From: Candidatus Heimdallarchaeum aukensis
Lineage (GTDB): Archaea > Asgardarchaeota > Heimdallarchaeia > Heimdallarchaeales > Heimdallarchaeaceae
Direction: 5' to 3'
Length of the DNA stretch: 64,000 nt
NCBI GenBank assembly: GCA_021513695.1
Contig: CP084166.1
Coordinates: 960,001 to 1,024,000, forward strand
In this document: positions 1-21,958 of the stretch, in pieces
How the letters are laid out: every line of letters begins with the position of its first letter
Numbering within the stretch: the first letter of the stretch is position 1
Position numbers and translations under genes: made by a program
Notes under the pieces: generated by a model
Seen by the model: only the letters and a program-made list of their open reading frames with translations
What the model was told of the DNA's origin: nothing
The model's database searches: none

Positions 1-1584
1 AAGTAGTGTGAAAATGCTTCATCTGCTAAAAGTTGTAGTTGTTCATAAAGGTTTAAGCTGAACTAAGTAGTGTGAAAATTGTGCTACATATATACACACC
101 TATATCCTGTTTATCGTTTAAGCTGAACTAAGTAGTGTGAAAATATCCTGATAGGTGAGTCCTACAGGAGAAAGAAAAAGTTTAAGCTGAACTAAGTAGT
201 GTGAAAATATCCTGATAGGTGAGTCCTACAGGAGAAAGAAAAAGTTTAAGCTGAACTAAGTAGTGTGAAAATCCCAATAGCATCCTCTTTTATCTGGGGC
301 TTGGTTTATGTTTAAGCTGAACTAAGTAGTGTGAAAATCTGTGATTTCTGCGGAAATAAACATGTGACGGAAAGTTTAAGCTGAACTAAGTAGTGTGAAA
401 ATGCAACTCTTTCCGTCCAGCGCACTAAAGCTGCTTTTGGGTTTAAGCTGAACTAAGTAGTGTGAAAATGTTTTTCATGGTAGCTTGCTACCAAAAATTT
501 ACTTAAAAGTTTAAGCTGAACTAAGTAGTGTGAAAATGAGACTGTTAATAGCGAAGTCAGATTCCTCAAAAGGTGTTTAAGCTGAACTAAGTAGTGTGAA
601 AATTTGTCTTTACACAGGGCATTCTCAGTTCTGGAGGAAGTTTAAGCTGAACTAAGTAGTGTGAAAATCACATAAACAAATTAGAAAGCGAAATAACCAC
701 AGTTGTTTAAGCTGAACTAAGTAGTGTGAAAATCAATATTCTTCATCTTCTTCTAAATCATACAATAGCGTTTAAGCTGAACTAAGTAGTGTGAAAATAG
801 AAAAGAGGAACCGTTGTTCTTAAAGGTAAAAATCGTTTAAGCTGAACTAAGTAGTGTGAAAATAAAGAGTATTGAACTCCTGGTTCAAAACTGATTTTGC
901 AGTGTTTAAGCTGAACTAAGTAGTGTGAAAATTAATTGCTTTTTTGTCTGCATGACTTGGTAATTCAAAGTTTAAGCTGAACTAAGTAGTGTGAAAATTT
1001 CAAGGTGAGACCAACGATCCTGGTTACTTCGGTTGTTTAAGCTGAACTAAGTAGTGTGAAAATAATATGTAATTAAATAAGTTTTTATTGTGGTAAAATG
1101 TTTAAGCTGAACTAAGTAGTGTGAAAATACATTAAGAAAACGCTTACCATCTAAAGAAACAATCGTTTAAGCTGAACTAAGTAGTGTGAAAATTCATAAG
1201 TTGACCAATATTCAGAAATTACATAACGTTTAAGCTGAACTAAGTAGTGTGAAAATGAAAGCGTTTAGAATTGGTGGCGGTTCTGGTTGCAGGTTTAAGC
1301 TGAACTAAGTAGTGTGAAAATTACTGGGCAATGGAAAAAAGCTGTTGCCGCATTCAAGTTTAAGCTGAACTAAGTAGTGTGAAAATTAACTCACTCGCTC
1401 ACCCTCAGAGAGAGCCACAAACGTTTAAGCTGAACTAAGTAGTGTGAAAATTAATTTACGTCATGACTATGATGCGACCCCCAACGAGGTTTAAGCTGAA
1501 CTAAGTAGTGTGAAAATATTTGACTACTAGGTTTAGGTTTGAATATGAACCAGAGTTTAAGCTGAACTAAGTAGTGTGAAAAAA
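1..1584 (+). CRISPR. CRISPR array: 25 direct repeats (first one partial at the window edge) of the 29-bp unit GTTTAAGCTGAACTAAGTAGTGTGAAAAT, with 24 spacers of 34-40 bp. The last repeat (1555-1584) is degenerate (GAAAAAT).
   Basis: Seen directly: perfectly conserved 29-mer at regular 64-69 bp spacing (e.g. 51-79, 116-144, 180-208 ... 1489-1517, 1555-1583). The array continues beyond the 5' window edge. Orientation is inferred from the GTTT...GAAAAT repeat ends and from the degenerate repeat sitting at the 3' side. Confidence 0.97.
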
Positions 1585-1606
1585 TAGATTGCCGATTAAA
1601 TTTTCT

Positions 1607-2407
1607 TTATTTGTAGAACAAATGTGAAATTGAACAATAATATCTTTTCAATTCAATTAATTCTTTTTCACTTTGTAATTTATTTTTCTGCTTTTCTATT
1701 TCAGAAAAAACAAATTCTACATCCTCAACATCTGTAAGATCTAATATATTCATTATTGTTTCATTTACTATTCTATCCCAAACTGTTATTCTTTTTATGC
1801 ACTTGTTAAAGAAGTTGCTAATTGGATTTTGAAGATTAATCAATTTTCTTAATTCTATTAATGAAATTAATTGTTCATTCTCAAAATTCTTTAGATATCT
1901 TCTATTCATTTCTATTATAACTTCAATAATAGCTTTGATATTCTCTTCATTTATTTTATTTCCTCTTGATTCTTTTATTTTCGTCTTTTTATAAGAATTC
2001 ATCAGTAGATTAACCACAGTTACTAAATGTAAATCAAATTCCTGATTAATCGTTTCTTTTTTGTCTATTAACAAGTCTCTTGCTTTTAGGCCAAGCATCC
2101 AGGAAAAAAGTCCACTTAATTGTGAATTTACTAATAATTTACTATTTTCTTGTGATGTTTTAATTTCTCTAAGTTTGTCTTGATAGAAGGGATTAAACAT
2201 ACCAAAAACGTGAGATACAATCAAGTTGTCAATAAAGAAAGATTCAATTTGTTTTTTAATTTCTTTCTCTTCTGGATTTTTTGAACTTTTTTTCATCTTT
2301 TCAGCTATTTTTTTTAAATCAGTAAAATAGTCACATAATTTCTTATTTGAACTAGCCAAAAATTCGAAATCACTATTACCCATATCGTTAATATATCTCT
2401 TCAACAC
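1607..2407 (-). CDS. Hypothetical protein (266 aa) whose stop lies 22 bp from the last CRISPR repeat. No recognisable Cas motifs.
   Basis: Long ORF with protein-like composition. Adjacent to the array and convergent with it. Confidence 0.5.
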   Translation of the reverse strand: MLKRYINDMGNSDFEFLASSNKKLCDYFTDLKKIAEKMKKSSKNPEEKEIKKQIESFFIDNLIVSHVFGMFNPFYQDKLREIKTSQENSKLLVNSQLSGLFSWMLGLKARDLLIDKKETINQEFDLHLVTVVNLLMNSYKKTKIKESRGNKINEENIKAIIEVIIEMNRRYLKNFENEQLISLIELRKLINLQNPISNFFNKCIKRITVWDRIVNETIMNILDLTDVEDVEFVFSEIEKQKNKLQSEKELIELKRYYCSISHLFYK

Positions 2408-2761
2408 ATCACATCCTGCCTAAAAGAAAGATTTCGTGTATTTCCTGTTTGTTTTAACTGTTTTGATTTAACAATAGGCTTTTTCGTGATCAGAGAATTT
2501 CTTATCATTTTTTTCACTTTAGGAATGATGATTAATATTGATTAATAGATTGAATCTTTTTTATCTTATATTTATTAGATTTTATTTTTCCTAAAAAGTT
2601 ATAAAATTCACACTAAAAATTATAACTTTGTGTTCTCTCTTTCCTGTTGTTAAATACACATTTTTGCTCCAAAGCGAATTATTTTATTCCAAACGGCTAG
2701 AAACAGAAGGTTAATTTCGTTTAAGAAAAGTTCTTAATAGGTTGAATTATTTAGTGTTTAG

Positions 2762-4246
2762 ATGGTTGATTTTGGTCTTATTGATCTTCAAGAAGCAATG
2801 AATGAAGCTGAGACCATATTAGGTGACAAATATACTTATTTTCAGTCATTAATTACAAAATATTCTGTAAAGCCAAGCAAGCCATTTTGGGATATAATTA
2901 TTTTTCTTACAGGTTTAAAGGTATACAAAGATACTGAACTATTTAACAAATGGATTAATTTTTGGAACAAGTATTCAGTATCAAGAAAATACAAGAACCT
3001 TATTTATCAGCCTTCTGCTTCTTTTTCTCCTTTCTTAACTGAAGAAGAAGCAGAAAAAAAGTTCACTAAACTGCTGAAAATGCTTTATAACCGCGATAGT
3101 GAACTTACCGAAGATCAACTTTGGACTTTATTTTTTTCTCTTTTTTATAAGCTTCGAAATGCAATTAAACCTAAATTCAGTAAGGTTGAATTTAGAGTAT
3201 TTCTAACTATTCTTAGCGAACAAACAACTATTCTTTCTACCCTCAACAAAAGTTTGATGATGGCAAAATCCAATCTTTCTGCATACATAAAAAGAATTAG
3301 AGAGAAAAAAGTTATTTTCGAAGGTTTTTTACTAAACCTAAGAAAATTTAACCTAAGTATTTTCTATTCAAGGATTAAATATCCTTTGTCATGTAATGAA
3401 AAAATTACTAAAATTATTCCTAGAGGAAAATTCTTAAGAAGAGTTTATGAGGGTCATATTGCATGTAATTATACTTTTCTGAGCTATTTAGCACCAAATT
3501 TAGATGAAATTAAAAAAGAATTTCTAAAAAACAAAAAAGAGATTTTGGAAGTTATTCCAAATGCTGAAATAGATTTTTTTAGAAGTGATAGAAATAGTAG
3601 ACTATATTCTTTCAATTACAGTAATTATGATTTCAAAAAGGGAAAATGGAATTTTGATATAGATGACATAAATTATAATTTATTTTGGCTTAATAATACA
3701 AAGAATAGCAAAACAGACAATTTAGTTAAGATAATTGAAAATTTTCCTTCTAACGAAGATTATGAACTAAAATTTGATAAAGAAACACTAGACATCCTAA
3801 GGTTTTTCTACTTAAATCCACAAAAGTCAGTTTCACAGATTATTGAAGAAATGGATGTAAGAGAAAGCAAAATAAGAAAAGCTATCAGTGACTTTGAAGA
3901 AAATCAAATTTTAAGAGCGAGAGTGAACCCTGCACCAGTATTTGGTTTGTCTAACATTATTCTCTATATTAAAGAGAAAAAAGACAAATTGAGAAAAATA
4001 CATGAAGAGCTTTCTTTTTTCCCAGAAGTTTATAGTGAACCTTTAGTTAATATCGAGACACAAGAGGAAGAGCTAATGATTATTGTAAGAGCTCCTGAAG
4101 CAATAACATTTCAAGTTGTAGAAGCTCTTTATCAAAAATATGAAAAAAAGATAGTGGGTTTATTCCTTATTGATCAAATGTACTCAACAAGGCAGGATCT
4201 TCCTCTAGAGAACTTTGATACTTTATTTAAGAGATGGAAAATATAA
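2762..4246 (+). CDS. Hypothetical protein (494 aa) with a probable C-terminal winged-helix DNA-binding region (…LDILRFFYLNPQKSVSQIIEEMDVRESKIRKAIS…).
   Basis: Long ORF divergent from 1607..2407. Contains one Rx4H (RVYEGH) string; this is not diagnostic on its own. Confidence 0.5.
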   Translation: MVDFGLIDLQEAMNEAETILGDKYTYFQSLITKYSVKPSKPFWDIIIFLTGLKVYKDTELFNKWINFWNKYSVSRKYKNLIYQPSASFSPFLTEEEAEKKFTKLLKMLYNRDSELTEDQLWTLFFSLFYKLRNAIKPKFSKVEFRVFLTILSEQTTILSTLNKSLMMAKSNLSAYIKRIREKKVIFEGFLLNLRKFNLSIFYSRIKYPLSCNEKITKIIPRGKFLRRVYEGHIACNYTFLSYLAPNLDEIKKEFLKNKKEILEVIPNAEIDFFRSDRNSRLYSFNYSNYDFKKGKWNFDIDDINYNLFWLNNTKNSKTDNLVKIIENFPSNEDYELKFDKETLDILRFFYLNPQKSVSQIIEEMDVRESKIRKAISDFEENQILRARVNPAPVFGLSNIILYIKEKKDKLRKIHEELSFFPEVYSEPLVNIETQEEELMIIVRAPEAITFQVVEALYQKYEKKIVGLFLIDQMYSTRQDLPLENFDTLFKRWKI

Positions 4247-4493
4247 TCCAAAAGTAAGATTATTTTGAACCATTTTTTAGGAATAAGAAAAAATGGTTAT
4301 AGATGTAAAAAAAATCGGTAGATGTATGAAATATACTTTTCACAAGTTTTGTGATGGAAAATATAGGTATCACATCATTTACTTGTAGATCATTTGTCAT
4401 ATTTACTTGGTTCCTAAATTAATAGAGTAAACATTCGTTGTTTTTTTATCCAAAAATTATAATAATGCTTTCTTTATTTTATAAGTGAAAAAA

Positions 4494-5351
4494 ATGAGTG
4501 ATGATAATAATTTTTCTTCTGATTTAAATAATGCCGATAGTGATTTTCTTTTTTCTTCCTCTTCTTTTGAGTCAAACCTTATTAATGGTGAAAAGGTCTT
4601 TAACGATTTTCTTATTCCTTATCGAACTATTTCTTTTTTTGGTCTTGTAGTCTTGACTTTATCCTTTCTTTTGCCTTTGATAGTTATTTTAGTTGTTCAG
4701 TTTGGTACTGATTTTTCTAGAGCTGTTAAATACACTATTGATGTCATAATGGGTTTGTGGCTATTTTTCACTTTCTTGTTTTTCTTTTTCATTGGTTCAA
4801 GTAATCAACGACTTATTATTACTAACTTTCGTTTAATTTGCATTAGAGAGTATTTTCCTTTTTTCTTTAAGAAGTTTAGAATTCTCAAGGAATGTTCTAC
4901 TGATATTAATAGTGTTACTCTTGTTGAGCGCAAAAAGTTTTCTCGTCCTGAACCTTTTATGTTTTTCACTGGATTGTTGATGTTTTTTGTTAGTTTATTA
5001 CTTTTTATTTCTATTAAGATTGTTGAGCAGTTCAACATTTCTTCTTTCATTCAATATAAGAAAACCATTCTTATTAGTAGTTCAATACTTTTGATTCTTT
5101 CTTTTATGCTTATTATTTATGCTATATTCTTTTTCTCCAAGAATATTTACAAACTAGCTTTTTCCATTGGTCAAACTTATCCTCTACCGCCTGTTATTGA
5201 CAGATTATTTTCAAGGAGTTTGAAAGCTGGTTATTGGGTAATTTACGGTTGGGAAAAAGATTCAAAAAGGATGTATGAAGAAGCTCCTCAAATACTATTT
5301 TCTCTTAAATTTGATAAGCATCTTCAACAGAATAATTTGAAGGAGCATTAA
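4494..5351 (+). CDS. Polytopic membrane protein, unknown function.
   Basis: Several long hydrophobic segments. The ORF-track start at GTG 4485 is probably the SD-like GGTGA-type motif ahead of ATG 4494 (MSDDNN…). Confidence 0.5.
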   Translation: MSDDNNFSSDLNNADSDFLFSSSSFESNLINGEKVFNDFLIPYRTISFFGLVVLTLSFLLPLIVILVVQFGTDFSRAVKYTIDVIMGLWLFFTFLFFFFIGSSNQRLIITNFRLICIREYFPFFFKKFRILKECSTDINSVTLVERKKFSRPEPFMFFTGLLMFFVSLLLFISIKIVEQFNISSFIQYKKTILISSSILLILSFMLIIYAIFFFSKNIYKLAFSIGQTYPLPPVIDRLFSRSLKAGYWVIYGWEKDSKRMYEEAPQILFSLKFDKHLQQNNLKEH

Positions 5352-5789
5352 TTTTTTTTATTACTTTCAACAAGTGGGACTTTTTTAACTAACTTACTAG
5401 CATAATAATTTTTTACTAACTTATTTTTCACTTATAATTCTTATTCTTCTCCTTTTTCTTTACTTTTTTCTTTCTTTATCCTTCTTTATTAATTTCTGTT
5501 AGTACCGACAATTCTTTAACCACATTATTAATTTTAAAAAATGGAATATGAATTCTTAAGCTTCCAAAATGGATCTTTATTTAATGAGACTCACTGTTGT
5601 AGAAATTTAATTTAAAACTATGACTTTTGTACAGAAACTTTTTTTACGAAGTTTTGGGTGTACACCTATTGCTAAGTTTTTTCCTGTTTGCTTCTTACTT
5701 TGCTGTTTCTTTGATTGAATTATTCCTATGCTTTTAATTCCTATTGTTAAGGAGTAATAACAGGAGAAGCTCTTGCGTGAGGGAATAAG

Positions 5790-6053
5790 ATGTCACAAGC
5801 AAAATTTCGTATTTATTGGAAGTCCTATTATCCTGAACGCATTACAGAGGAGTACATCAAAGCTGATAATCCTTGTCACGCTTTACTCTTAATTCGTGAC
5901 AAGTTCTTTGCTGAACATTCTGACGATATTTATTGTGCTTATGTATTTAGTCTACAAGTGAGAAAGGAAGGTTGTTGGGCTGATTGGACTTCTGAGAATG
6001 GTTTAGACATTACTACTCTTGCTGAAGAATTAGAGCTATTTACTTACTCTTGA
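5790..6053 (+). CDS. Small hypothetical protein (87 aa).
   Basis: ORF with balanced composition and no recognisable motif. Confidence 0.3.
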   Translation: MSQAKFRIYWKSYYPERITEEYIKADNPCHALLLIRDKFFAEHSDDIYCAYVFSLQVRKEGCWADWTSENGLDITTLAEELELFTYS

Positions 6054-6198
6054 TCTTGGTTCTTGTGTTGACAAGTAAAATATTCATAATTGTGCTTTCT
6101 ATGATGACTGAATAAAGTCCGATTGATTGAATTCTTCGTTGCTATTAAAGTTCTTTGATTTTGTTTAATTTTCTTTTCTTTCTTTTTTCTTTTATTCT

Positions 6199-7230
6199 TT
6201 ATTTTTCTTTCTTTGCTTCGTCTTTTGCTCTGTTTTTTGTTTTTATTTTATTTGTTCGTTCTGTCTCTATTTCTTTTTCTTCTATTTTTTTACTTTTATC
6301 TAGTATAATTATTATTACTCCTGCTATTATTCCTATTCCTCCCAGAATGTAAGATAGTGTTATTGGTTCTTTTAGTATTATTGCGCCTAGTATTATTGCG
6401 AACACTGGTTCATCTAGTAGTAGTAATGAGCTTTTTGATGACTCTTGATATTTTGCTGAGATCATCAACAGTCCATATGGTATTACGCTTCCTGCTAGTG
6501 CGAATCCTATTCCTATTAGTATTATTTTTGTTTTCATTATATTTTCTATTTCCATTTTTGCTAACTCTTCTGGTAGGGGTAGTATTGAGAACATTATTAG
6601 TAGAGGTAGAGCTATAATTATTGCCCATGATATCACCCAAGCTATTGATAGGGAATAGGGAACGTTTTTTCTTTTTTCTGCGCTTGCTCTTCCTACTAAA
6701 AGGTAGAAAGCGTAGAACAGTCCATTTAGTATTGCTAGAGTTGTTCCAACTATTGATGACATAAATGACTCCCATTTCCACACTTCTGTCAATGTGATTA
6801 ATCCTGCTGTTGCTACTATTATTGCTAGTATTTTGCTTTTTGTTATCCTTTCTTTTAGGAATATCCTTCCCAGTATTAGTGTTATGAACGGGTGTATCTG
6901 TATTAGCAGTGCTGCTTCTCCTGCTGGTGTTCCTACTGCTATTGAACTTAGGTAAACAACTATCATCATTACGAAGATTAAACTTTGTAACAGGTATGTT
7001 TTCTGATTTGTTAGCTTAATCGAGTTCTTTACTTGTTCTTTGTTTTTCTTTAATGTGTAGAAAACTATTATTCCTAACCCAAATATCGAACCGAAGAATA
7101 TTCTTAGCAATGATTGTTCTATACTTGAAACATTCAGATCTCTTAATATTGCTGAGATTACTGGTATTGAACCAAAAAATAGTCCTGCTGTGATTGATGC
7201 TAAATATGAAAAATTAGTTTTTTTATCCAT
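6199..7230 (-). CDS. DMT-superfamily (EamA-like) transporter, about 10 TM, with a Lys/Glu-rich C-terminal tail.
   Basis: Two repeated 4-5-TM halves of hydrophobic helices typical of EamA. The T/C-rich plus-strand stretch 6155-6350 is the antisense of its K/E tail. Confidence 0.65.
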   Translation of the reverse strand: MDKKTNFSYLASITAGLFFGSIPVISAILRDLNVSSIEQSLLRIFFGSIFGLGIIVFYTLKKNKEQVKNSIKLTNQKTYLLQSLIFVMMIVVYLSSIAVGTPAGEAALLIQIHPFITLILGRIFLKERITKSKILAIIVATAGLITLTEVWKWESFMSSIVGTTLAILNGLFYAFYLLVGRASAEKRKNVPYSLSIAWVISWAIIIALPLLIMFSILPLPEELAKMEIENIMKTKIILIGIGFALAGSVIPYGLLMISAKYQESSKSSLLLLDEPVFAIILGAIILKEPITLSYILGGIGIIAGVIIIILDKSKKIEEKEIETERTNKIKTKNRAKDEAKKEK

Positions 7231-7445
7231 TCTGGTTCGGGGTGTTTTTCTTTTTCACATTTATCAATCTTTACTCTTTCTCCATTCAATTTTCTATTAT
7301 TTATTCTTTCTTTTTTTCTCATTCTTTTCTGATTTTTACTATTTTTTCTATCAAACTTATCTATCAAACTTTTCTATCAAACTTTTCTATCATTTCTTAT
7401 GCAGCTTTTTCATAATTTTCTTAAATTGAAATTTTTCTTTCTCAT

Positions 7446-7904
7446 ATGGACTGCAGTTGGTGCAATTTAGATAGTTTTTCTGACTATTTCATTTACGACA
7501 GTGAATATTTCAGCGTTTATCTTTCTGAAGATCAAAGTCTTTTAGGTAGACTTATCTTGGTTCTTAATCGTCACGCTTCTTCTTTAAGTGATTTGACTCA
7601 TGAAGAAATACATGATTTTCTTTCTAATGTTAAAATCATTGAAAAAACTTTGACTAAAGCCTTTGGTACAACTATGTTTAATTGGAGTTGTTTGATGAAC
7701 AATTCTTTCAAAAAGCAACCTAGTTTTCCTCATGTCCATTGGCATTGTCGTCCTCGTTATGCTCACGATGTTTCTTTTACTGGTTTAGTTTTTTCTGACC
7801 CTGATTTTGCTCATCATTATAATAACAAAAGAAAACTTTTTGTCTCTCCTGAGGTTCGACAATCTATTATTTCTGCCATCCGAGACAATCTCTCTTCTGT
7901 CTAA
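7446..7904 (+). CDS. HIT-family (histidine triad) protein.
   Basis: HxHxHxx motif 'HVHWHCR' in the C-terminal half of a ~150-aa protein, as in HIT hydrolases. Confidence 0.6.
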   Translation: MDCSWCNLDSFSDYFIYDSEYFSVYLSEDQSLLGRLILVLNRHASSLSDLTHEEIHDFLSNVKIIEKTLTKAFGTTMFNWSCLMNNSFKKQPSFPHVHWHCRPRYAHDVSFTGLVFSDPDFAHHYNNKRKLFVSPEVRQSIISAIRDNLSSV

Positions 7905-8057
7905 TTTATAGAAATTATTTTTTCTCTTCCTTCTTCTTTCCTTCAGATATGTTTGTACTTTACTTCTACTTTTTTTTGTTTCTTTCTTTCTTCCTTCCAC
8001 TTGTTTAAACATATAACCTTTTCTTATTTTATTTTGTAAGGCATTTTATCATTCTAC

Positions 8058-8066
8058 TTTTTATAT
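8058..8066 (+). promoter_or_regulatory. Possible archaeal TATA box (TTTTTATAT) upstream of the surface-protein gene.
   Basis: TATA-like octamer in the upstream intergenic region. AT-rich background gives low specificity. Confidence 0.2.
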
Positions 8067-8187
8067 TCTAGGCCCACCTAATCCATTTGCACTTTTTTTC
8101 GAAACGCTTTTAAACATGCTCAAATATTTTTCATTGATTGAAGAATCTTTCTTCGGTCATAATAATAACAAATTAGAAGGAATTATT

Positions 8188-10281
8188 ATGAAAAAAAGAA
8201 TGTTAATAACAAGCATTTTCATTTTTGCCTTTTTAGTAGCAGTTATTCCTTTAACTGCAAATGCTAAAGTCCTTTCTACTAGAGCTACAAAGGATTTGGG
8301 CGGTGGAGATGCTTATAACGCATATAGTGCATCTGATTATGCAACCCTTATTAGTACACCTATTTCGGGTTACGGAGATATTTACTATTCCAGTGATCAG
8401 TATGATCAATACAAAGTAGCAGTAAGTTCAGGAGATCAAGTAACGATTGAGTTTACTGCCCCTAGTGGAGCAACAGGAATTGATCTTCCTGTTTATGACA
8501 CTGACAAGTCTCGAATACTCATTCGTTACAACATCCAGACTTTCTCCGAGACTGTTACTGCTTCTGGCAACGGTTACATTTACTTTACTATAGATGCAGA
8601 CACTTATGATGATAGAGGTACTTATTATCTCAGTGTTTCTAAATCTGGAGCAGTTGACACTACTCCACCTACTGTAAGTATTACTGACCCTGCTGATGGA
8701 GCAACTGTTTATTCTGCAGATGTCACTGTTTCATGGACTGGTTCTGACAATGTCGGCATAGACTATTACGAGGTCAGAATTGATGGTGGTTCATGGATCA
8801 ATGTCGGAACATCTACAAGCTACACCTTTACTGGTTTAGCTGACGGTAGTCATACTGTAGATGTTAACGCTTATGACGCTGCAGGAAATGTTGGTTCTGA
8901 CAGTGTAACTTTCACTGTTGATACCAGTGCTCCTCCTACTGAGTATACTTTCACTGGTTCACTTAGTGCTGGACAGGACAGTACTCAACACACCTTTAAC
9001 GTTCCTTCCAACACCATTAAGATCGAGGTTCAGCTTCAAATGCCCAGTGGTGCAGATTACGATTTAAGCCTTTGGGACTCTAATGGAGCTCGAACTGGTG
9101 GTTGGACTTCAACTGATAGTAGTACTAAAACAGATATTGCCAACAGTGATTATTCTGGTTATTCTGCTGATCCTGAGTGGGTTACTGTTGATCCTCCTGC
9201 TGTTTTTGGTACCTGGAAGACTGGTTGTTATGCTTACAGTGGTTCTGGTACTTACACCATCACTGTTACTCTAACGCTCAGTGGTCCAGATACTACTGCA
9301 CCTACTGTTACTATAACTGACCCAACAGATGGTTCTACAGTTAATTCTGCTGATGTTACTGTTTCATGGACTGGTTCTGACGATGTTGGTATTGACCACT
9401 ATGAAGTCAGAATCGATGGTGGTTCATGGATCAATGTTGGAACATCTACAAGCTACACCTTTACTGGTTTAGCTGACGGCAGTCACACTGTAGATGTTAA
9501 TGCCTATGATGCTGCAGGTAACGTTGGTTCTGACAGTGTGACTTTCACTGTTGATACCACTACCAATCCTGTTGAAAAATGGGCAGTTATTGTTGGTATT
9601 AGTGACTACAAAGCTATTAGTGATCTTTCTTACTGTGATGAGGATGCAACTGACTGGTATTATCAACTTACCAGCAGTCAAATGAGTTATGACCATATCA
9701 CTGTTTTAGGAGATGGATATTCTTCTAACTATCCTCAATGGGATGGCTATGCTACAGAGTACAATGTTAAACAAGCTTTGAACAACATGGTTAATTCTGC
9801 TGACTCTAATGACATTATAGCTTTCATCAGTTCTGGTCATGGTTCGGGTAATGGTGCAGGTTCTTCATACTTGTGTATGTGGGACTGCAGTTCAGGAGAA
9901 AACGGAGAAGATGGAAATCTCTATGACACTGAATTAGCAGCAATTCTTGACGGAGCTGTTGCTGACAGGATTTTCGTCTTCTTAGACCATTGTTACAGTG
10001 GTGGTTTTGGAGACGACCTCATGAATATGCCTAACAAAGACCGTGTTTACCTAACAACAACCTGTACAGAAAATGGTTATGGTTATGATGACTCCACTCA
10101 TCAAAATGGTGCTTGGACTTACTACTTCCTAGATTACTCTTGGCAGCAACATTTCGGTGGTGCAGCTAATGTTGCTATGGAAGACATCTTCGACTATGCT
10201 TTAGCTGCTTATCCATACAGTGGTGGAGACACTCCTCAAGAGTTCGATGGAAACACAGGTGCGTACTTCTACCTGGCATAA
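8188..10281 (+). CDS. Secreted multidomain protein. It has a signal peptide, two tandem near-identical Ig/FN3-like domains and a C-terminal caspase-like (clan CD; C13/C14-type His-Cys dyad) peptidase domain.
   Basis: MKKRMLITSIFIFAFLVAV signal, preceded by AGAAGG. Repeated motif 'TxPTVxITDPxDGxTVxSADVTVSWTGSD' twice. 'SSGHG' plus 'LDHCYSGGFG' His/Cys dyad. The ORF track starts at 8116, but Met at 8188 with an SD is the more likely start. Confidence 0.7.
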   Translation: MKKRMLITSIFIFAFLVAVIPLTANAKVLSTRATKDLGGGDAYNAYSASDYATLISTPISGYGDIYYSSDQYDQYKVAVSSGDQVTIEFTAPSGATGIDLPVYDTDKSRILIRYNIQTFSETVTASGNGYIYFTIDADTYDDRGTYYLSVSKSGAVDTTPPTVSITDPADGATVYSADVTVSWTGSDNVGIDYYEVRIDGGSWINVGTSTSYTFTGLADGSHTVDVNAYDAAGNVGSDSVTFTVDTSAPPTEYTFTGSLSAGQDSTQHTFNVPSNTIKIEVQLQMPSGADYDLSLWDSNGARTGGWTSTDSSTKTDIANSDYSGYSADPEWVTVDPPAVFGTWKTGCYAYSGSGTYTITVTLTLSGPDTTAPTVTITDPTDGSTVNSADVTVSWTGSDDVGIDHYEVRIDGGSWINVGTSTSYTFTGLADGSHTVDVNAYDAAGNVGSDSVTFTVDTTTNPVEKWAVIVGISDYKAISDLSYCDEDATDWYYQLTSSQMSYDHITVLGDGYSSNYPQWDGYATEYNVKQALNNMVNSADSNDIIAFISSGHGSGNGAGSSYLCMWDCSSGENGEDGNLYDTELAAILDGAVADRIFVFLDHCYSGGFGDDLMNMPNKDRVYLTTTCTENGYGYDDSTHQNGAWTYYFLDYSWQQHFGGAANVAMEDIFDYALAAYPYSGGDTPQEFDGNTGAYFYLA

Positions 10282-15812: not shown

Positions 15813-15823
15813 AGGTGAAAAAA

Positions 15824-16297
15824 ATGAGTGAAAAAAAGAAAAAAATAGCTATAATTGCTTCTAAAGCCAATTTAGCAGATGCTTACCCTCCTTTTATCTT
15901 AGCGTCTACAGCAGCTGCAATGGATTATGAAGTATCAATATTCTTTACTTTCTTCGGTCTTAATTTGCTTAAGAAAAAAGGATTGAAGAAAGTTAAGATT
16001 ACTCCTGTAGGAGAAACTGCAATGCCCATGCCTATTCCACAAATAGTTGGAATGCTTCCTGGAATGACTGACATGGCAACAGCAATGATGAAAAATTGGA
16101 TGAAAAAGGCCAATGTGGTCTCTTTAGAAGAGTTAAGAGAATTATCTCTAGAAGCTGGAGTAAAAATGATTGCTTGTCAAATGACAATGGACGTAATGAA
16201 AGTTAAAAGAGAAGAATTAATTGATGAAATAGAGGTTGGAGGAGCTGCCACTTTCCTACAATTTGCATCAGAAGCCGACATTACTTTATACATTTAA
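15824..16297 (+). CDS. dsrE: DsrE/DsrF-family sulfur-relay protein.
   Basis: ~155 aa; 'IAIIASK…' DsrE-like fold signature and the 'IACQM' cysteine region; paralogous to 17564..18001. Confidence 0.65.
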   Translation: MSEKKKKIAIIASKANLADAYPPFILASTAAAMDYEVSIFFTFFGLNLLKKKGLKKVKITPVGETAMPMPIPQIVGMLPGMTDMATAMMKNWMKKANVVSLEELRELSLEAGVKMIACQMTMDVMKVKREELIDEIEVGGAATFLQFASEADITLYI

Positions 16298-16317
16298 CCT
16301 AGTTTGAAGTGATAAGG

Positions 16318-16695
16318 ATGTCTGAACAAAAAAAGAAGATGATTATCGTTGTTACTAGAGGAGAAGAAAGTAAAGAAACCTTAGAACCTCCTCTTCATAT
16401 TGCAACTATGGCTGCTCTGTTAGATGCAGAAGTAAAGATGATATATACTGCTAAAGCCGGACTACTATTAAAGAAAGGTGTACCAGAAAAACTAATTCCT
16501 CAAGAAGGAAGACAACCATTGATAGAAACAATTCGAGAAGCAAAAGAAGCAGGTGTTCAAATATACGTATGCACCCCAGTGCTAGAATGGAATAAACTTA
16601 ATAAAGATGATTTCATAGAAGAAATAGATGGAATTGTCGGAGCAATGACTTTAGTTAAAGAGTCACTTGAAGCTAACTCGACAATATCATTCTAA
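16318..16695 (+). CDS. DsrE/DsrF/DsrH-like small protein.
   Basis: ~125 aa; 'MIIVVTRG…YVCTPVLE' resembles DsrE-fold proteins. Confidence 0.5.
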   Translation: MSEQKKKMIIVVTRGEESKETLEPPLHIATMAALLDAEVKMIYTAKAGLLLKKGVPEKLIPQEGRQPLIETIREAKEAGVQIYVCTPVLEWNKLNKDDFIEEIDGIVGAMTLVKESLEANSTISF

Positions 16696-17120
16696 TGAAG
16701 TGGAAAATAATGTCTCTCTCACTTAACTCGCTGTTATCCAAAGATATTACCTGCTTTGATGTAATAAAGAATCTTTTTGCCTTAACTGATAATGAAATTG
16801 ATGTTTTAGCTTGTATTAACCACCTTCAACCAGTAAGCATAGCTAGAATTACAGAAATAATACCCAAAGATAGAGCCACTATATCAAGATCTATCTCTAG
16901 ATTAATGAGCATCGGAGTTGTACGGAAAGAAAAAGAAAATTTGGAGAAAGGAGGATACCAATTTCTGTATAGTAGCTTACCTATGAACGAATTAAGAAAA
17001 TTTGTAAAAAGTACCTTGAATGCAATAATTGAAAATATGAGTATCGCAATGGATAACTTAACAAAAGAAAAATGTGAAGAAAAATTCCAAGAAGTAAAAA
17101 GGAAATACAGCAAAAAATAG
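16695..17120 (+). CDS. Winged-helix (MarR/TrmB-like) transcriptional regulator.
   Basis: '…VSIARITEIIPKDRATISRSISRLMSIGVVRKE…' HTH plus wing. Confidence 0.5.
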   Translation: MKWKIMSLSLNSLLSKDITCFDVIKNLFALTDNEIDVLACINHLQPVSIARITEIIPKDRATISRSISRLMSIGVVRKEKENLEKGGYQFLYSSLPMNELRKFVKSTLNAIIENMSIAMDNLTKEKCEEKFQEVKRKYSKK

Positions 17121-17236
17121 ATTTCCTTTAACAATTTTCCTTTACATTTTTGTTGGTTAACGTTTTATAAAATAGTTATCCTTTTCATTTTATAGATAAA
17201 AGAATTCAAAAAAACTCTTATATTAAATCTTTTTTT

Positions 17237-17521
17237 TTGAGTAAACAAGAAAATAGTGTGATAATAATGACAGAAGTAGATCTAAATAAAATCAAAGCGC
17301 ATCATATTGTAGATGCTAGAGGTTCAGCATGTCCTGGACCATTATTAGAAGCAAAGAAAGGAATCTCAAAGGTTCCCAAAGGAGGAGTCCTTGAAGTTCA
17401 ATCTAGCGACCCTGGTACAAAAAATGATCTTCCTGCATGGTGTAGACGAGCAGGACATAAATTTTTGGGCGTTTTAGAAGCAGATGGATATGATAGAGTT
17501 TTCATTCAAAGACTAAAATAG
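17237..17521 (+). CDS. tusA: TusA-like sulfurtransferase.
   Basis: 'SACPGP' motif. Confidence 0.8.
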   Translation: MSKQENSVIIMTEVDLNKIKAHHIVDARGSACPGPLLEAKKGISKVPKGGVLEVQSSDPGTKNDLPAWCRRAGHKFLGVLEADGYDRVFIQRLK

Positions 17522-17526
17522 AATAT

Positions 17527-17545
17527 TCCTTTTTTTATTAAATTT
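17527..17545. terminator. T-run/A-run between convergent tusA and dsrE-like genes. Possible bidirectional terminator.
   Basis: CCTTTTTTTATTAAATTTTAAAAAAAA lies between two convergent stops. Confidence 0.25.
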
Positions 17546-17563
17546 TAAAAAAAATAAAAAGAA

Positions 17564-18001
17564 TTATATTAAGATATTTGCTTTTGCTTTTGTTGCTGCT
17601 TCAATATATGAAGCTATACCAGAAATTTCATCTACAAGATCAGAGAAATCATCTTCTGGGATATCAAAAAGTGGGATCATGTTAGAACAAGCAATTATTT
17701 TAACATTTCCTGACTCTTTTGCTTTCTTAAGAGCTGCTCTCCAATTACCTAGTCCTTTTTCTTTCATATTTTTGCGCATCAGTTCCTCATAAGGTTGTCC
17801 CTCTATACTTACTGGAAAATGATCTGGTGCGCCTTTTCTAAAAGCATGAGTTCCCCAAAAAGCTAGAAAAATATGTACATCATAATCCATTGCAATAGCT
17901 CCATTTGTTATTGTTGCAAGAGCTATGAGTTTTTCTTCTGTTCCAGAGGTTACCATTATACTAAATAATTCTCTTTCTTCTGACATAATAAACCACATCA
18001 C
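17564..18001 (-). CDS. dsrE: DsrE-family sulfur-relay protein.
   Basis: '…IIACSNM…' active-cysteine region; global similarity to 15824..16297. Confidence 0.65.
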   Translation of the reverse strand: MMWFIMSEERELFSIMVTSGTEEKLIALATITNGAIAMDYDVHIFLAFWGTHAFRKGAPDHFPVSIEGQPYEELMRKNMKEKGLGNWRAALKKAKESGNVKIIACSNMIPLFDIPEDDFSDLVDEISGIASYIEAATKAKANILI

Positions 18002-18210
18002 ACTGGTTGCGTGTCCAGATTCACAACTGGCATTTTAAAGATTTTGTAGTTTTTATAACAATAAAAATATTTTTTAATAGATTACGAATTGTTTTTTATA
18101 ATAAGCTCTTTTTATAATTGGCTTTTATCTTAACATATATGCTTTTTTAGTTTATTATCGCTCTATAATTTAAAAAAAATTATTATATCTTTTAAAAATT
18201 TTATTCCAAC

Positions 18211-18630
18211 ATGCAACAAAATGCAAAAAGACAAAAAATTAAAACCAAGAAGATTCTGATTATAACAACAAACGATATTTCTTATCTTGGTGCAGACACA
18301 GCAGGACAGCAACATCTAAAGTATTCAGAAGATGCTCTGATAATACGTGTTCCTGATCCTGTAATTTTTCCACCTGATTTTTATGTGAGAACATTAGAGA
18401 AAGGATTTGGGGGGATAATTGTAGCTTCTGCTGGTGATGAATCTCCTTTCTTGAATTCTCATGCCAGATTAGCGAAGAATATTGATGCTGCTTATAAAAT
18501 AATGAATGAAAAAGGAATTGACACAAAAAGGCTTGTTCTTACAGCCATTTGTAGCATTTGTGCAGGAAGTTTTATCAAAGCTGTTAACAACATGACTAAA
18601 TATTTAGACAGTGTTCATGAGCAAGAGTAA
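18211..18630 (+). CDS. MvhD/FlpD-like protein (hydrogenase delta subunit family). It has few cysteines.
   Basis: '…YLGADTAGQQHLKY…IIRVPD…' matches the MvhD core (…SYGGADTAG…IIRV…). Only a CxxC ('ICSICAG') remains. It sits immediately upstream of hdrA, as mvhD often does. Confidence 0.5.
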   Translation: MQQNAKRQKIKTKKILIITTNDISYLGADTAGQQHLKYSEDALIIRVPDPVIFPPDFYVRTLEKGFGGIIVASAGDESPFLNSHARLAKNIDAAYKIMNEKGIDTKRLVLTAICSICAGSFIKAVNNMTKYLDSVHEQE

Positions 18631-18643
18631 AGAGGAGAGATAA

Positions 18644-19927
18644 ATGAAAAATTATGATGCTTTAGTGATTGGAGCAGGGATCTCTGGTATTCAGACTGCG
18701 TTAGATCTAGCAGAACAGGGATTTAAAGTATTAATGATTGATAAAAAGAAAAGTACGGGAGGAGTAATGATTCAATTAAGTAAAGTTTTTCCGACTTTAG
18801 ATTGTGCATCTTGTATTACTACTCCCAAGATGAGTGAAGCGAGTAATCACCCAAATATAGAAACATGGACATTAAGTGAAGTTACAAGCATTAGTGAAAA
18901 TAACGGTTCTTATGTAGTAAATATACTCAAACACCCGCGATATGTAGATCTTGTAAAATGTACTGGTTGTGGAATATGTGAAGAAGTTTGTCCTGTAATA
19001 GTTGAAGATGAATATAATGAATACTATGGAATAAGGAAAGCTGTGGGTGTACCCTTTGGCACTGCAATTCCTCAAAAGGCAGTGTTAGAACCAGAATATT
19101 GCATTTTTTGTGGGGCTTGTGCGAAAAAATGTCCTACACAAGCAATTGAGTATGATCAAGAGCCAGAAAACATAGAAGTTAAAGTAAAAGCTGTAATTGT
19201 TGCTACAGGTTTTGAACAAACGCCAATAAAAGAAGAATATGGGGGAGGACGGTATAAGAATGTAATCAATGCCCTTACTATGGAAAGGCTTTTAGCTCCA
19301 ACAAGTCCTTTTGGTGGAGTTTTTCGCCCAGGAGATGGCAAGAATCCCTATTCTATTGCTTATATTCAATGCGCTGGTTCAAGAGATGCGAGTATTGGTG
19401 TTCCTTATTGTTCTAGAGTCTGTTGTATGTTCGCAGTGAAACAAGCCATGTTACTCTGCGGAGCAGCACCTTTAGCTGATATTACAATCTACTATATGGA
19501 TATCCGAGCTTTTGGTAAAAGGTATGAAGAGTTCTTCCAAGAAGCAAGAGAAATGGGTATAAATTTTGTTAAAGGTAAAGTCGCAAAAATAGAAGAACTG
19601 GAAAATGGTAATCTTAAGCTTAGAGTAGAGGTTCAAGAAGAGGAAGATTATGGAGTTAAGGAAATAGAACATGAACTTGTTGTTTTATCATCTGGAATGC
19701 TTCCCGCTTGGAAACCTGAAAAAGTGAGAGAAATATTACCGCTTGAAATCCACAAGTATGGTTTTATTAAAAGTCTACAACCACATGTAAATCCGTCTCA
19801 AACTAATTTAGATGGAATATTTGTTTCAGGAACAGCTATGGCCCCAATGGATATTGTAGATTCAATTTATAGCGGTAGTACAGCAGCAATGAAAGCTGCT
19901 TTGTACATTAAGAAAATTAAGGAGTAG
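18644..19927 (+). CDS. hdrA: HdrA-like FAD/FeS flavoprotein (heterodisulfide reductase subunit A family).
   Basis: 'DALVIGAGISG' FAD motif; two CxxCxxCxxxCP ferredoxin motifs; HdrA signature 'CAGSRDxxxxxxxxCSRVCC'. Confidence 0.8.
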   Translation: MKNYDALVIGAGISGIQTALDLAEQGFKVLMIDKKKSTGGVMIQLSKVFPTLDCASCITTPKMSEASNHPNIETWTLSEVTSISENNGSYVVNILKHPRYVDLVKCTGCGICEEVCPVIVEDEYNEYYGIRKAVGVPFGTAIPQKAVLEPEYCIFCGACAKKCPTQAIEYDQEPENIEVKVKAVIVATGFEQTPIKEEYGGGRYKNVINALTMERLLAPTSPFGGVFRPGDGKNPYSIAYIQCAGSRDASIGVPYCSRVCCMFAVKQAMLLCGAAPLADITIYYMDIRAFGKRYEEFFQEAREMGINFVKGKVAKIEELENGNLKLRVEVQEEEDYGVKEIEHELVVLSSGMLPAWKPEKVREILPLEIHKYGFIKSLQPHVNPSQTNLDGIFVSGTAMAPMDIVDSIYSGSTAAMKAALYIKKIKE

Positions 19928-19930
19928 ATC

Positions 19931-21958
19931 ATGATGTCAGAGAAAGTGAAAATCGGAGTTTATGTTTGTCATTGCGGCTTCAACATAGCTGAAATGGTAG
20001 ACGTAAAAAAAGTTGCTGAAGTGTTGGGAAAAGAAGAAGATGTGGAAGTTGCAAAAGATTTTATTTTTATGTGTTCTGACGCTGGGCAAAAGATGATTGA
20101 AAATGATATCAAAGAAAAGGGAATAAATAGGGTTATTGTTGCATCATGTTCTCCACTATTGCATGAAAAAACATTTCAAGGTGTTTTGGAGCGTGCAGGG
20201 CTAAATAAATTCCTCTTTGAACACATAAACATTAGAGAGCAAGTAAGTTGGGTAAGTAAAAACAAAGAGTCGGCTACAGAAAAGGCTATTCGTTTAATTA
20301 GAGGAGGAATAGCGAAAATACGGAAACAACAAGCTCTTGAACCAATTCTAAAGAAAGTGACTAAAAGTGTAGCAGTTATAGGAGGAGGAGTTGCAGGGCT
20401 AATTTCAGCAAAGAATTTGGGTGAAATGGGCGTTGATGTAACATTAATAGAAAAAAGTCCTTTTATTGGAGGAATGGTTGCAAGATGGGATAAATTGTTT
20501 CCAAACGATGAAAATGCTCAAGACATAGTTCGTAAACTAATAGAAGAAGTAAAAGATAATAAACATATACGGATTCTTACTAATTCTCAGATAGTGGGAG
20601 GAAAAGGGAGTTTAGGTGGATATTCTGTCACAATAGAGACAATTTCCAGAGGAATCAAAAGACTTCCAGAGAATATAGAAAACATTCTTTCTTCTTGCCC
20701 CATAGAAATAGACTCTCCTGAATCTTTTGGGTTAGAAAAAAGAAAAATTGTTTACAAACCAGAATACATATGCTATCCTGAAGAATATGCCATAGATTGG
20801 GATAATCTATCTGATGCAAAAGAACTAGAGAAATACAAAAAATGGGTTAAAGAGTCTAATCTTGAAGAAAAATTTGAATTAGAAAAAACAGTAACAAAAG
20901 AAGAAATTAATGTGGGAGCAATAATATTCGCTACTGGTTTTGAACCTTATGAACCTTATGAGGGAGAATATGGGTGGAAGAAGCATCCAAATGTTGTTAC
21001 TTTGCCACAATTAATAGAAATTCTAAAAAGAGTAGACAAAAATCAAACTCATTTCGTTTATAATGGGAAGGAAATTAAATCTGTAGCCTTTATTCATTGT
21101 GTTGGAAGTAGACAAATAGAAGGAGAAGATATCCCAGGACCTGATGGAAAGCTAAATACTTACTGCTCACGATATTGTTGTAATGCTACTATACATACAG
21201 CCAATGAATTGAAGAAACTTTACCCAAATTTACACGTTTATGAATTCTATCGTGATATTCGTACATATGGTCTTGACGATGAGGATATGTATACTAAAGC
21301 TTCCAAGAACGATGTTATATTTTTGAGATTTAACAATGAGTATAAACCAGAAGTTCAGATTTTAGAGAATGAAAAGTATAATTTTGTTATATCTGTAAAA
21401 GATCAATTAAGTTACTACGAAGAAGTTGACATACCAGCGGATATGGTAGTGTTAAGTGTTGGAATGGTTCCTCCACAGATAGATGATCTAGTATCTATTT
21501 TCACTGTCTCAAGAGGAAATGATGGTTTCCTACTTGAAGCTCATCCAAAACTAAAACCTGTTGAAACTTCTTCTGGTATTTTCCTTGCTGGAACAGCGCA
21601 AGGACCTATGAATGCAAGTGAAGCTGCTGCAGGAGCTACAGCAGCTGCAGTTAAAGTAGCAGCAGTGGTTTCTAAAGATGAGCTAGCTTTATCTCCATTT
21701 ATTGCTCGTGTTGACATTACAAAATGTGATGCTACTGGAAAATGTGTTGAAGTGTGTGAATATAATGCTATTGAAGTAACTGAGGTTGAAGTCGAAAAAG
21801 GAAAAGTGGAAAGAAAAGCGCAAGTTAATCCTACTTTATGTGTAGGAGGAGGAACATGTGTAAGCGCATGCCCTAACCAAGCTATTCGCATTGTTGGATG
21901 GACGAACGAGCAAATTGAAGATATGATTACTGCGATGATCAAGGAGGTTAAAGAATAA
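19931..21958 (+). CDS. hdrA: HdrA-like paralog (675 aa) with an N-terminal Cys-rich domain and C-terminal 2x[4Fe-4S] domain.
   Basis: 'VAVIGGGVAG' FAD motif; 'CVGSRQ…CSRYCC' HdrA signature; C-terminal 'CxxxGxCxxxCE' / 'CVGGGTCVSACP'. Confidence 0.75.
   Translation: MMSEKVKIGVYVCHCGFNIAEMVDVKKVAEVLGKEEDVEVAKDFIFMCSDAGQKMIENDIKEKGINRVIVASCSPLLHEKTFQGVLERAGLNKFLFEHINIREQVSWVSKNKESATEKAIRLIRGGIAKIRKQQALEPILKKVTKSVAVIGGGVAGLISAKNLGEMGVDVTLIEKSPFIGGMVARWDKLFPNDENAQDIVRKLIEEVKDNKHIRILTNSQIVGGKGSLGGYSVTIETISRGIKRLPENIENILSSCPIEIDSPESFGLEKRKIVYKPEYICYPEEYAIDWDNLSDAKELEKYKKWVKESNLEEKFELEKTVTKEEINVGAIIFATGFEPYEPYEGEYGWKKHPNVVTLPQLIEILKRVDKNQTHFVYNGKEIKSVAFIHCVGSRQIEGEDIPGPDGKLNTYCSRYCCNATIHTANELKKLYPNLHVYEFYRDIRTYGLDDEDMYTKASKNDVIFLRFNNEYKPEVQILENEKYNFVISVKDQLSYYEEVDIPADMVVLSVGMVPPQIDDLVSIFTVSRGNDGFLLEAHPKLKPVETSSGIFLAGTAQGPMNASEAAAGATAAAVKVAAVVSKDELALSPFIARVDITKCDATGKCVEVCEYNAIEVTEVEVEKGKVERKAQVNPTLCVGGGTCVSACPNQAIRIVGWTNEQIEDMITAMIKEVKE

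What the first reader, a model, noticed from the sequence alone, without database searches (positions are those of the whole stretch)
1..1584. CRISPR array with a tandemly duplicated spacer and no cas genes in the window
Spacer ATCCTGATAGGTGAGTCCTACAGGAGAAAGAAAAA occurs twice in succession (145-179 and 209-243), i.e. a repeat-spacer unit duplication. The leader and any cas operon must lie beyond the 5' window edge, because the 3' end abuts the stop of a convergent gene at 1607 and the terminal repeat is degenerate. All 24 spacers (34-40 bp) are otherwise unique by eye.
Basis: seen in the sequence. Interest (0 to 1): 0.5.

Follow-up and report, generated by a model that had tools for sequence, protein, structure and literature searches.

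The report
Published Heimdallarchaeum CRISPR array, one duplicated spacer
This is the far end of a real CRISPR immune-memory array, already catalogued as system "C5" in the published genome of the Asgard archaeon Candidatus Heimdallarchaeum aukensis, and its back-to-back duplicated spacer is an ordinary by-product of recombination between identical repeats.

Summary
Window 1-1583 holds one cut repeat plus 24 full copies of a 29-nt repeat (GTTTAAGCTGAACTAAGTAGTGTGAAAAT). There are 24 spacers of 34-40 nt. Spacers 145-179 and 209-243 are identical, and the 64-nt units 116-179 and 180-243 match 100%. The last repeat differs only at its final base, and a convergent gene stops at 1607.

The window comes from the circular genome of Ca. 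Heimdallarchaeum aukensis (Wu et al. 2022, PMC8813620). Spacer lengths and locus synteny identify the array as that paper's system C5, which has 70 spacers and is described as a complete operon. The window therefore holds only the leader-distal third.

No core cas gene is in the window. ORF 2762-4246 is a tandem Lrp/AsnC-like protein whose close orthologs sit inside or beside cas operons in relatives. The repeat is 22/29 identical to the Clostridioides difficile type I-B repeat, but the cas type could not be tested.

No spacer target was found in any collection searched. One spacer is the reverse complement of a spacer in the sister species' type III-A-linked array. The duplication is best explained by repeat-mediated unequal recombination or slippage.

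Verdict: already known, low interest.

The parts
1..1583 (+). CRISPR array, leader-distal part. It has 1 truncated plus 24 full 29-nt repeats (GTTTAAGCTGAACTAAGTAGTGTGAAAAT) and 24 spacers of 34-40 nt. It is inferred to be the last third of system C5 of Ca. H. aukensis.
   Evidence: identification as C5
116..243 (+). Tandem duplication of one repeat-spacer unit (116-179 = 180-243, 64 nt, 100% identical). The spacer copies lie at 145-179 and 209-243.
538..574 (+). Spacer 9. It is the reverse complement, over 36/36 nt, of a spacer in the Ca. H. endolithica type III-A-linked array (L012:16078-16117).
1555..1583 (+). Terminal (leader-distal) repeat with a single substitution at its last base (T->A).
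   Evidence: a related mini-array (L024) also varies at this base in its last repeat
1584..1606 (+). Short trailer between the last repeat and the stop codon of the convergent gene. Similarity to the array-free relative L009 breaks off around 1625.
1607..2383 (-). Convergent 258-aa gene of unknown function (no Pfam, PADLOC or NCBIfam family). It is split into 139-aa and 98-aa ORFs in the close relative L009.
2762..4246 (+). 494-aa protein (UJG41612.1, K9W45_03895) with an N-terminal helical domain plus two Lrp/AsnC-like wHTH+RAM modules. Its close orthologs are embedded in or next to cas operons in relatives.

Best explanation
Window 1-1583 is the leader-distal end of a functional-type class 1 CRISPR array, system 'C5' of Candidatus Heimdallarchaeum aukensis. 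It is read left to right on the + strand. About 46 more spacers, the leader and the cas operon lie upstream of the window edge.

Each 29-nt repeat would be cut by a Cas6-type nuclease to give crRNAs that carry one 34-40 nt spacer. This step is inferred.

The identical neighbouring spacers 3 and 4 arose as a DNA-level duplication of one 64-nt repeat-spacer unit. The likely route is replication slippage or unequal recombination between identical repeats, not a biological novelty.

The array sits at a genomic hotspot where whole CRISPR-Cas modules are exchanged between close relatives. The hotspot lies next to a conserved tandem Lrp/AsnC-like gene.
For: Anatomy.

Source genome: exact protein matches to Ca. 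H. aukensis (3,081,793-bp contig; UJG41612.1 and others).

Identification as C5:
- The paper describes seven systems, with C5 and C6 a 'complete local operon swap' and C5 among the complete operons.
- In its source data only C5 (70 spacers, 34-41 nt) can contain the window's spacer-length set, including a 34-nt spacer.
- The orthologous locus in Ca. H. endolithica (L012) carries a III-A operon plus an array with spacers of 37-45 nt, which fits 'C6-right'.

Orientation:
- The only mutated repeat is the right-hand terminal one.
- There is no room for a leader on the right.
- Synteny with an array-free relative ends at the convergent gene's 3' end.
- The repeat is 22/29 identical to the C. difficile I-B repeat in the same orientation.
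- That system has documented variant leader-distal repeats (PMC4556805).

Duplication by recombination:
- In the related array L014 both copies of a duplicated spacer are followed by the same mutated repeat.
- L014 also has a spacer-less repeat-repeat junction. Both features show unit-level rearrangement in this lineage.

Against an artefact: the genome was assembled with metaSPAdes at k up to 99 from 150-nt reads and polished at 346x. For two copies of a 64-nt unit every 99-mer is unique. The spacer-repeat-spacer junction therefore has to be present in reads. This last point is my own reasoning.
Against: The upstream DNA could not be retrieved. The only other assembly of this locus, Logan SRR15988954, breaks inside the last repeat. 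The leader, the cas genes and the cas type are therefore not seen directly.

No H. aukensis Cas1 surfaced in the homology search.

No protospacer was found for any spacer. Activity and PAM are therefore unproven.

The shared protospacer lies in opposite orientation to the sister species' spacer. If the window array were read on the minus strand, the 5' ends of the two spacers would differ by only 1 nt. This leaves some doubt about orientation.

Identical repeats make slippage and two successive acquisitions indistinguishable from sequence alone.
Confidence: 0.8

Rival explanations
1. The two identical spacers are two independent, successive acquisitions of the same 'hot' protospacer during one infection episode, not a DNA duplication.
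For: Exact spacer duplicates with identical boundaries occur non-adjacently in related arrays: L012 spacers 60 and 63, and L009 spacers 6 and 11. The same protospacer was also captured by two different CRISPR classes in two species. Both observations suggest preferred protospacers.
Against: The pair lies deep in the array, roughly spacers 47-48 of 70 from the leader if the array is C5. In L014 the duplicated spacer carries its mutated downstream repeat with it, which shows unit-level duplication. Adjacent identical units are the classic product of slippage.
Confidence: 0.2
2. The duplication is an assembly or scaffolding artefact of a repetitive region.
For: The genome is a short-read metagenome assembly scaffolded with Nanopore reads from MDA-amplified DNA. 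The independent Logan assembly breaks at the array and cannot confirm its internal order.
Against: With k=99 and a 64-nt unit, a two-copy tandem gives only unique 99-mers. The spacer-repeat-spacer junction must therefore exist in reads, and a collapse would remove copies rather than create them. This is reasoning from the methods. The assembly was pilon-polished at 346x.
Confidence: 0.06
3. It is an orphan array with no dedicated cas operon, served in trans by another system of the genome.
For: No core cas gene lies within 62 kb downstream. A near-identical repeat occurs as a cas-less two-repeat mini-array in another metagenome contig (L024). C. difficile arrays with the most similar repeat are often remote from cas genes.
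Against: The source paper lists a single orphan array, C4, with 18 spacers, fewer than the 24 seen here. It counts C5 among the complete operons.
Confidence: 0.08

Closest known systems
CRISPR-Cas system 'C5' of Candidatus Heimdallarchaeum aukensis (Wu et al. 2022, Nat Microbiol, PMC8813620)
   Same: It is the same genome, shown by exact protein identities. The spacer-length profile is compatible only with C5. The locus is the same as C6 of the sister species, with which C5 is reported as a local operon swap.
   Different: Nothing differs, because this is the same object. The paper's text does not mention the tandem spacer duplication or the reverse-complement spacer shared with C6. The cas subtype is given only in a figure that could not be read here.
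Clostridioides difficile type I-B CRISPR arrays (29-bp repeat GTTTTATATTAACTAAGTGGTATGTAAAT; Boudry et al. 2015, PMC4556805)
   Same: Both have a 29-nt repeat and they share 22/29 identical positions, including the block AACTAAGT.GT.TG.AAAT. In both, the leader-distal repeat can be variant. The window repeat has little predicted structure.
   Different: The host is a bacterium, whereas this is an Asgard archaeon. Seven repeat positions differ. The cas genes here are unseen. The C. difficile PAM is CCW, whereas the single inferred 5' flank here is ATTA.
CRISPR-Cas 'C6' of Ca. H. endolithica (type III-A effector, DUF2797-Cas1-Cas2-Cas4, 37-nt repeat)
   Same: It occupies the orthologous locus, contains the ortholog of the 494-aa gene (65% identity), and shares one protospacer with the window array.
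   Different: Its repeat is 37 nt (GTTGCAATTAGGATCTCAGAATAGTGAGAATTGAAAT) and its spacers are 37-45 nt. The shared spacer is in the opposite orientation. The cas genes are visible and of type III-A.
Rfam CRISPR-DR families (best match: CRISPR-DR41, RF01350)
   Same: The model has the same length (29) and gives a weak match of 21.7 bits.
   Different: The match is below the gathering score of 36 bits, and no Rfam family is matched at gathering threshold.

Membership tests
CRISPR array (generic) | Three or more near-identical direct repeats of 23-55 nt at regular spacing | tested here: met
   There are 24 full repeats plus 1 partial repeat of 29 nt, with a period of 63-69 nt.
CRISPR array (generic) | Non-repetitive spacers of similar length | tested here: met
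   There are 23 distinct spacers of 34-40 nt and one exact adjacent duplicate.
CRISPR array (generic) | AT-rich leader and cas genes next to the array | not testable with these tools
   The array runs off the window's 5' edge. The literature lists C5 as a complete operon.
CRISPR array (generic) | Spacers match mobile elements | tested here: not met
   No match was found in the GenBank phage collection. Five spacer cores gave no match in IMG/VR. The rest of the window gave no match. The paper's mobilome FASTA gave no match. One spacer shares a protospacer with another species' array, which is indirect evidence of a common foreign target.
Type I-B (C. difficile-like repeat family) | Repeat sequence and length belonging to the family | tested here: inconclusive
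   The length matches (29 nt) and 22/29 positions are identical. No curated model reaches threshold.
Type I-B (C. difficile-like repeat family) | Adjacent cas8b-cas7-cas5-cas3-cas6 operon | not testable with these tools
The Cas1 profile search did not surface an H. aukensis protein.
Type I-B (C. difficile-like repeat family) | 5' PAM next to protospacers | tested here: inconclusive
   Only one flank could be reconstructed, 5'-ATTA, from the overlapping H. endolithica spacer.
Heimdallarchaeaceae 37-nt-repeat arrays (DUF2797-Cas1-Cas2-Cas4 module) | 37-nt repeat ending ATTGAAAT with spacers of about 37-45 nt | tested here: not met
   The window repeat is 29 nt, ends GTGAAAAT, and has spacers of 34-40 nt.
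Orphan array (C4 of Wu et al.) | 18 spacers, next to a tRNA gene | tested here: not met
   The window alone holds 24 spacers, and no tRNA gene is present in the window.

The most novel reading that the evidence does not exclude
The conserved 494-aa tandem Lrp/AsnC-like gene beside the array may mark, and perhaps regulate, a swap hotspot where complete CRISPR-Cas modules of different types replace one another in Heimdallarchaeaceae. The types seen are III-A, I-D and the 29-nt-repeat class. Particular viral protospacers may also be sampled repeatedly by these unrelated modules. Evidence for this is the same 36-nt target stored in opposite orientations in two species, and exact duplicates in every long array examined. 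Together these could point to a shared upstream step that generates prespacers.
Probability: 0.2. Interest if true: 0.45.

Novelty: already known. Interest (0 to 1): 0.18.

Why it matters
CRISPR spacers are the main handle for linking uncultured viruses to Asgard archaea, the closest prokaryotic relatives of eukaryotes. This array has already been used for that purpose in the source paper.

The finding adds only small points:
- a tandem unit duplication
- one protospacer shared, in reverse orientation, with the sister species' type III-A-linked array
- a regulator-like gene that travels with CRISPR loci in this family

None of these changes current understanding. The shared protospacer could help locate a common Heimdallarchaeum virus and read off two PAMs at once.

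Tried and rejected
- **Exact 29-nt repeat.** No hits in genome contigs, metagenome contigs or viral contigs.
- **19-nt repeat core in metagenomes.** One related two-repeat mini-array without cas genes (L024) and four chance hits.
- **Rfam.** Nothing at gathering threshold and only sub-threshold CRISPR-DR matches.
- **Extending the contig.** Only a Logan contig that starts inside the last repeat was found.
- **Second genome scan with the HdrA-like protein.** It gave only 44-54% relatives from other lineages.
- **Searching for the H. aukensis cas operon.**
  - A Csc2 search found no aukensis protein, so the system is not the I-D type seen in the close relative L009.
  - A Cas1 profile search and cluster listing found no aukensis protein.
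  - Two Logan Cas1 contexts came from unrelated samples.
  - A Heimdallarchaeota I-B-like locus turned out to carry a 37-nt repeat.
- **Spacer targets.**
  - GenBank phages gave only chance-level hits with E >= 2.
  - Five IMG/VR scans were negative.
  - The rest of the window gave matches of 14 nt at most.
  - The paper's mobilome FASTA was negative for 14-15-mers taken from all 23 unique spacers. Both strands were searched except for spacer 17, which was searched on one strand only. A positive control term was found. The file is line-wrapped, so about 20% of true matches could be missed per spacer.
- **PAM-derived last repeat base.** I considered that the repeat's last T might come from the PAM, as in E. 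coli I-E. I rejected this because the base 5' of the one reconstructable protospacer is A.
- **Literature.** Full-text searches for the repeat, the run accession and the C. difficile repeat returned nothing.
- **L025 510-aa protein.** I considered that it belongs to the 494-aa family and rejected this.

Full report
**Observation**

The window begins inside a repeat (bases 1-15). It then carries 24 complete copies of the 29-nt repeat GTTTAAGCTGAACTAAGTAGTGTGAAAAT, starting at 51, 116, 180 ... 1555. The 24 spacers are 34-40 nt long. Spacers 3 (145-179) and 4 (209-243) are identical. Tandem Repeats Finder scores 116-272 as 2.5 copies of a 64-nt unit at 100% identity. All other spacer pairs share at most 13 nt. 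Only the last repeat (1555-1583) deviates, by T->A at its final base. A convergent ORF has its stop codon at 1607-1609. No curated Rfam family is matched at gathering threshold. The best sub-threshold match is CRISPR-DR41 at 21.7 bits against a cut-off of 36. The repeat has essentially no predicted structure.

**Source of the window**

Ten window proteins were looked up by exact sequence. All ten are in the collection. Seven of these exact sequences are recorded from the 3,081,793-bp chromosome of Candidatus Heimdallarchaeum aukensis. For example, ORF 2762-4246 is UJG41612.1, locus tag K9W45_03895. That genome was published by Wu et al. 2022 (PMC8813620). The paper catalogues seven CRISPR-Cas systems, C1-C7, across the two Heimdallarchaeum genomes. 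[quoted passage not shown] C5 and C6 are described as 'a complete local operon swap'. The authors also reported no homologous repeats in GTDB and no spacer matches in viral databases. This agrees with my zero hits for the exact repeat in genome, metagenome and viral collections.

**Which system it is**

The paper's source data give spacer-length distributions for each array. The window's spacer set is 34:1, 35:4, 36:11, 37:5, 38:1, 39:1, 40:1. It fits only C5, which has 70 spacers of 34-41 nt.
- C2 has no 34-nt spacer.
- C1 has a single 35-nt spacer.
- C4 and C6-left have too few spacers.
- C3 and C6-right have spacers of 37-46 nt.

Synteny gives an independent argument. The ortholog of the window's 494-aa gene in Ca. 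H. endolithica (P0151, 65% identity) lies in a locus with these genes in order: cas10, csm2, csm3-like, csm4, csm5-like, cas6, the 494-aa ortholog, a DUF2797 protein, cas1, cas2, cas4. They are followed by an array of at least 86 repeats of 37 nt, with spacers of 37-45 nt. This matches 'C6-right'.

The window array therefore occupies the C6-equivalent position in H. aukensis, which makes it C5. The window holds only about the last third of the array. According to the paper a cas operon accompanies it. I could not see that DNA. That contig is identical to window 1553-8835 and starts inside the last repeat.

**Orientation**

Several lines place the leader to the left:
- The single variant repeat is the right-hand terminal one.
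- Only 23 nt separate it from a gene's stop codon, whereas leaders in related loci are about 125-200 nt.
- Similarity to an array-free close relative (L009) ends at the 3' end of that convergent gene.
- A related two-repeat mini-array (L024, repeat 28/29 identical) also varies at the last base of its right-hand repeat.
- A degenerate-pattern scan showed the repeat is 22/29 identical, in this orientation, to GTTTTATATTAACTAAGTGGTATGTAAAT. This is the only sequence type, apart from one single-base variant, found in 36 prophage contigs. One of these contigs (L041) was compared with GenBank phages and matched C. difficile phages.

C. difficile arrays with 29-bp repeats belong to an experimentally characterised type I-B system with variant leader-distal repeats (PMC4556805). 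This makes a type I-B-like system the best guess, but it is a resemblance and not a tested membership.

**A swap hotspot**

A JGI contig from a very close relative (L009) shows a different arrangement. Its orthologs of the 494-aa and 285-aa genes are 97% and 93% identical to the window's. The 258-aa gene is split there. Next to these genes it has two further genes and a full type I-D operon: cas10d, csc2, csc1, cas3, cas6, a DUF2797-like protein (44% identical to the L012 DUF2797 protein), cas1, cas2, cas4. Its array has a different 37-nt repeat. Three close relatives thus carry three different CRISPR-Cas modules at one place, as the paper already noted for two of them.

**The 494-aa neighbour**

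ORF 2762-4246 has no Pfam or NCBIfam family. Its only library match is a weak PADLOC hit to the Csa3 winged-helix region. A profile of its family matches Lrp/AsnC regulators twice, at residues about 143-257 and 330-442. An AlphaFold model (pLDDT 81.6) shows an N-terminal helical domain plus two wHTH+RAM modules. Its best whole-chain match is the fused tandem Lrp/AsnC-fold protein NirDL.

Orthologs at 54% identity or more lie between cas6 and the adaptation genes in three type III-A loci (L012, L014, L063) and beside the I-D operon in L009. A 34% relative is not next to cas genes. A role as a locus-linked transcription regulator is an inference.

No core cas gene is present elsewhere in the window. 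There are only two TnpB-like fragments, at 37321-38208 and 63345-63818.

**Spacer targets**

No protospacer was found. The searches were:
- GenBank phages: nothing better than E = 2.
- IMG/VR: five spacer cores, all negative.
- The remaining 62 kb of the window: nothing longer than 14 nt.
- The paper's mobilome FASTA: negative for 14-15-mers taken from all 23 unique spacers. Both strands were searched except for spacer 17, which was searched on one strand only. A positive control term was found, but the file's line wrapping reduces sensitivity.

One link did emerge. Spacer 9 (538-574) is the reverse complement, over 36 of 36 nt, of a 40-nt spacer in the H. endolithica C6 array. The two species therefore stored the same foreign site in two different CRISPR classes, in opposite orientation relative to their repeats. 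From the overlap, the 5' flank of the window's protospacer reads ATTA. This rules out the idea that the repeat's last T is PAM-derived. It leaves the PAM unresolved, since there is only one example.

**The duplication**

Exact spacer duplicates occur in every long related array I could read: L012 spacers 60/63, L014 32/44 and L009 6/11. In L014 both copies are followed by the same mutated repeat, and a spacer-less repeat-repeat junction lies next to one of them. This shows that repeat-mediated rearrangement of whole units happens in this lineage.

The window's adjacent, perfectly identical 64-nt units deep in the array are most simply explained by slippage or unequal recombination. Two successive acquisitions of a preferred protospacer cannot be excluded.

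An assembly artefact is unlikely. The genome was assembled with k up to 99 from 150-nt reads and polished at 346x. For two copies of a 64-nt unit all 99-mers are unique. The junction must therefore exist in reads, and errors would tend to collapse copies rather than create them. I could not check the reads.

**Verdict**

This is a real, ordinary and already published CRISPR array. The cas subtype and the leader remain unseen from here. The side observations are minor leads and not a new kind of system. They are the shared reverse-complement spacer, the CRISPR-linked tandem Lrp/AsnC-like gene, and the DUF2797-Cas1-Cas2-Cas4 module that always accompanies 37-nt repeats.

Noticed in passing
window 538-574; L012:16078-16117: Spacer 9 is the exact reverse complement (36/36 nt) of a spacer in the Ca. 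H. endolithica type III-A-linked array. The same protospacer is stored by two CRISPR classes in sister species in opposite orientation. The source paper's text does not mention it.
   Followed up: partly
window 2762-4246 (+): A 494-aa protein with an N-terminal helical domain plus two Lrp/AsnC-like wHTH+RAM modules. Orthologs at 54% identity or more are embedded between cas6 and cas1 in type III-A operons (L012, L014, L063) or flank a I-D operon (L009).
   Followed up: partly
L012:11651-12577, L009:14389-15249, L025:9065-9985, L063:11691-12620: A DUF2797-family protein directly precedes cas1-cas2-cas4 in Heimdallarchaeaceae loci with III-A, I-D and I-B-like effectors. In the three loci whose arrays are visible (L012, L009, L025) the repeats are 37 nt and end ATTGAAAT; L063 ends within cas1. 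It may be an uncharacterised adaptation-module accessory gene.
   Followed up: no
L014:17258-17334 and 18186-18300; L012:19408-19448 and 19645-19685; L009:17731-17769 and 18121-18159: Every long related array contains one exact non-adjacent spacer duplicate. In L014 both copies carry the same mutated downstream repeat, and one copy is followed by a spacer-less repeat-repeat junction.
   Followed up: partly
L024:130-230 (Ga0164318_10076213): A two-repeat, one-spacer mini-array with a repeat 28/29 identical to the window's lies next to ABC-transporter genes. There are no cas genes on the 3.1-kb contig.
   Followed up: partly
window 54594-62686: A cluster of eukaryote-like small GTPases surrounds a 1535-aa ORF (55335-59942) that has no Pfam or PADLOC hit; UniRef names it an Ig-like domain-containing protein. 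The GTPases are Ras/Roc-like at 54594-55313 and Gtr1/RagA-like at 59990-61462 (+) and 61463-62686 (-).
   Followed up: no
window 37321-38208 (+) and 63345-63818 (-): Two short TnpB/IS605 OrfB-like ORFs carry a Cas12f1-like TNB domain. They are probably transposon remnants and are not associated with the array.
   Followed up: no
window 34825-35625 (-): A caspase-domain (Peptidase_C14) protein lies next to an unannotated 152-aa ORF.
   Followed up: no
window 15815-23473: A sulfur and heterodisulfide-reductase-like gene cluster: three DsrE-family proteins, MvhD/FlpD, two HdrA-like flavoproteins, an Fe-S membrane protein and TrmB-like regulators. The closest genome-collection relatives of the HdrA-like protein are only 44-54% identical and come from Thermoproteota and Anaerolineales MAGs.
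   Followed up: no
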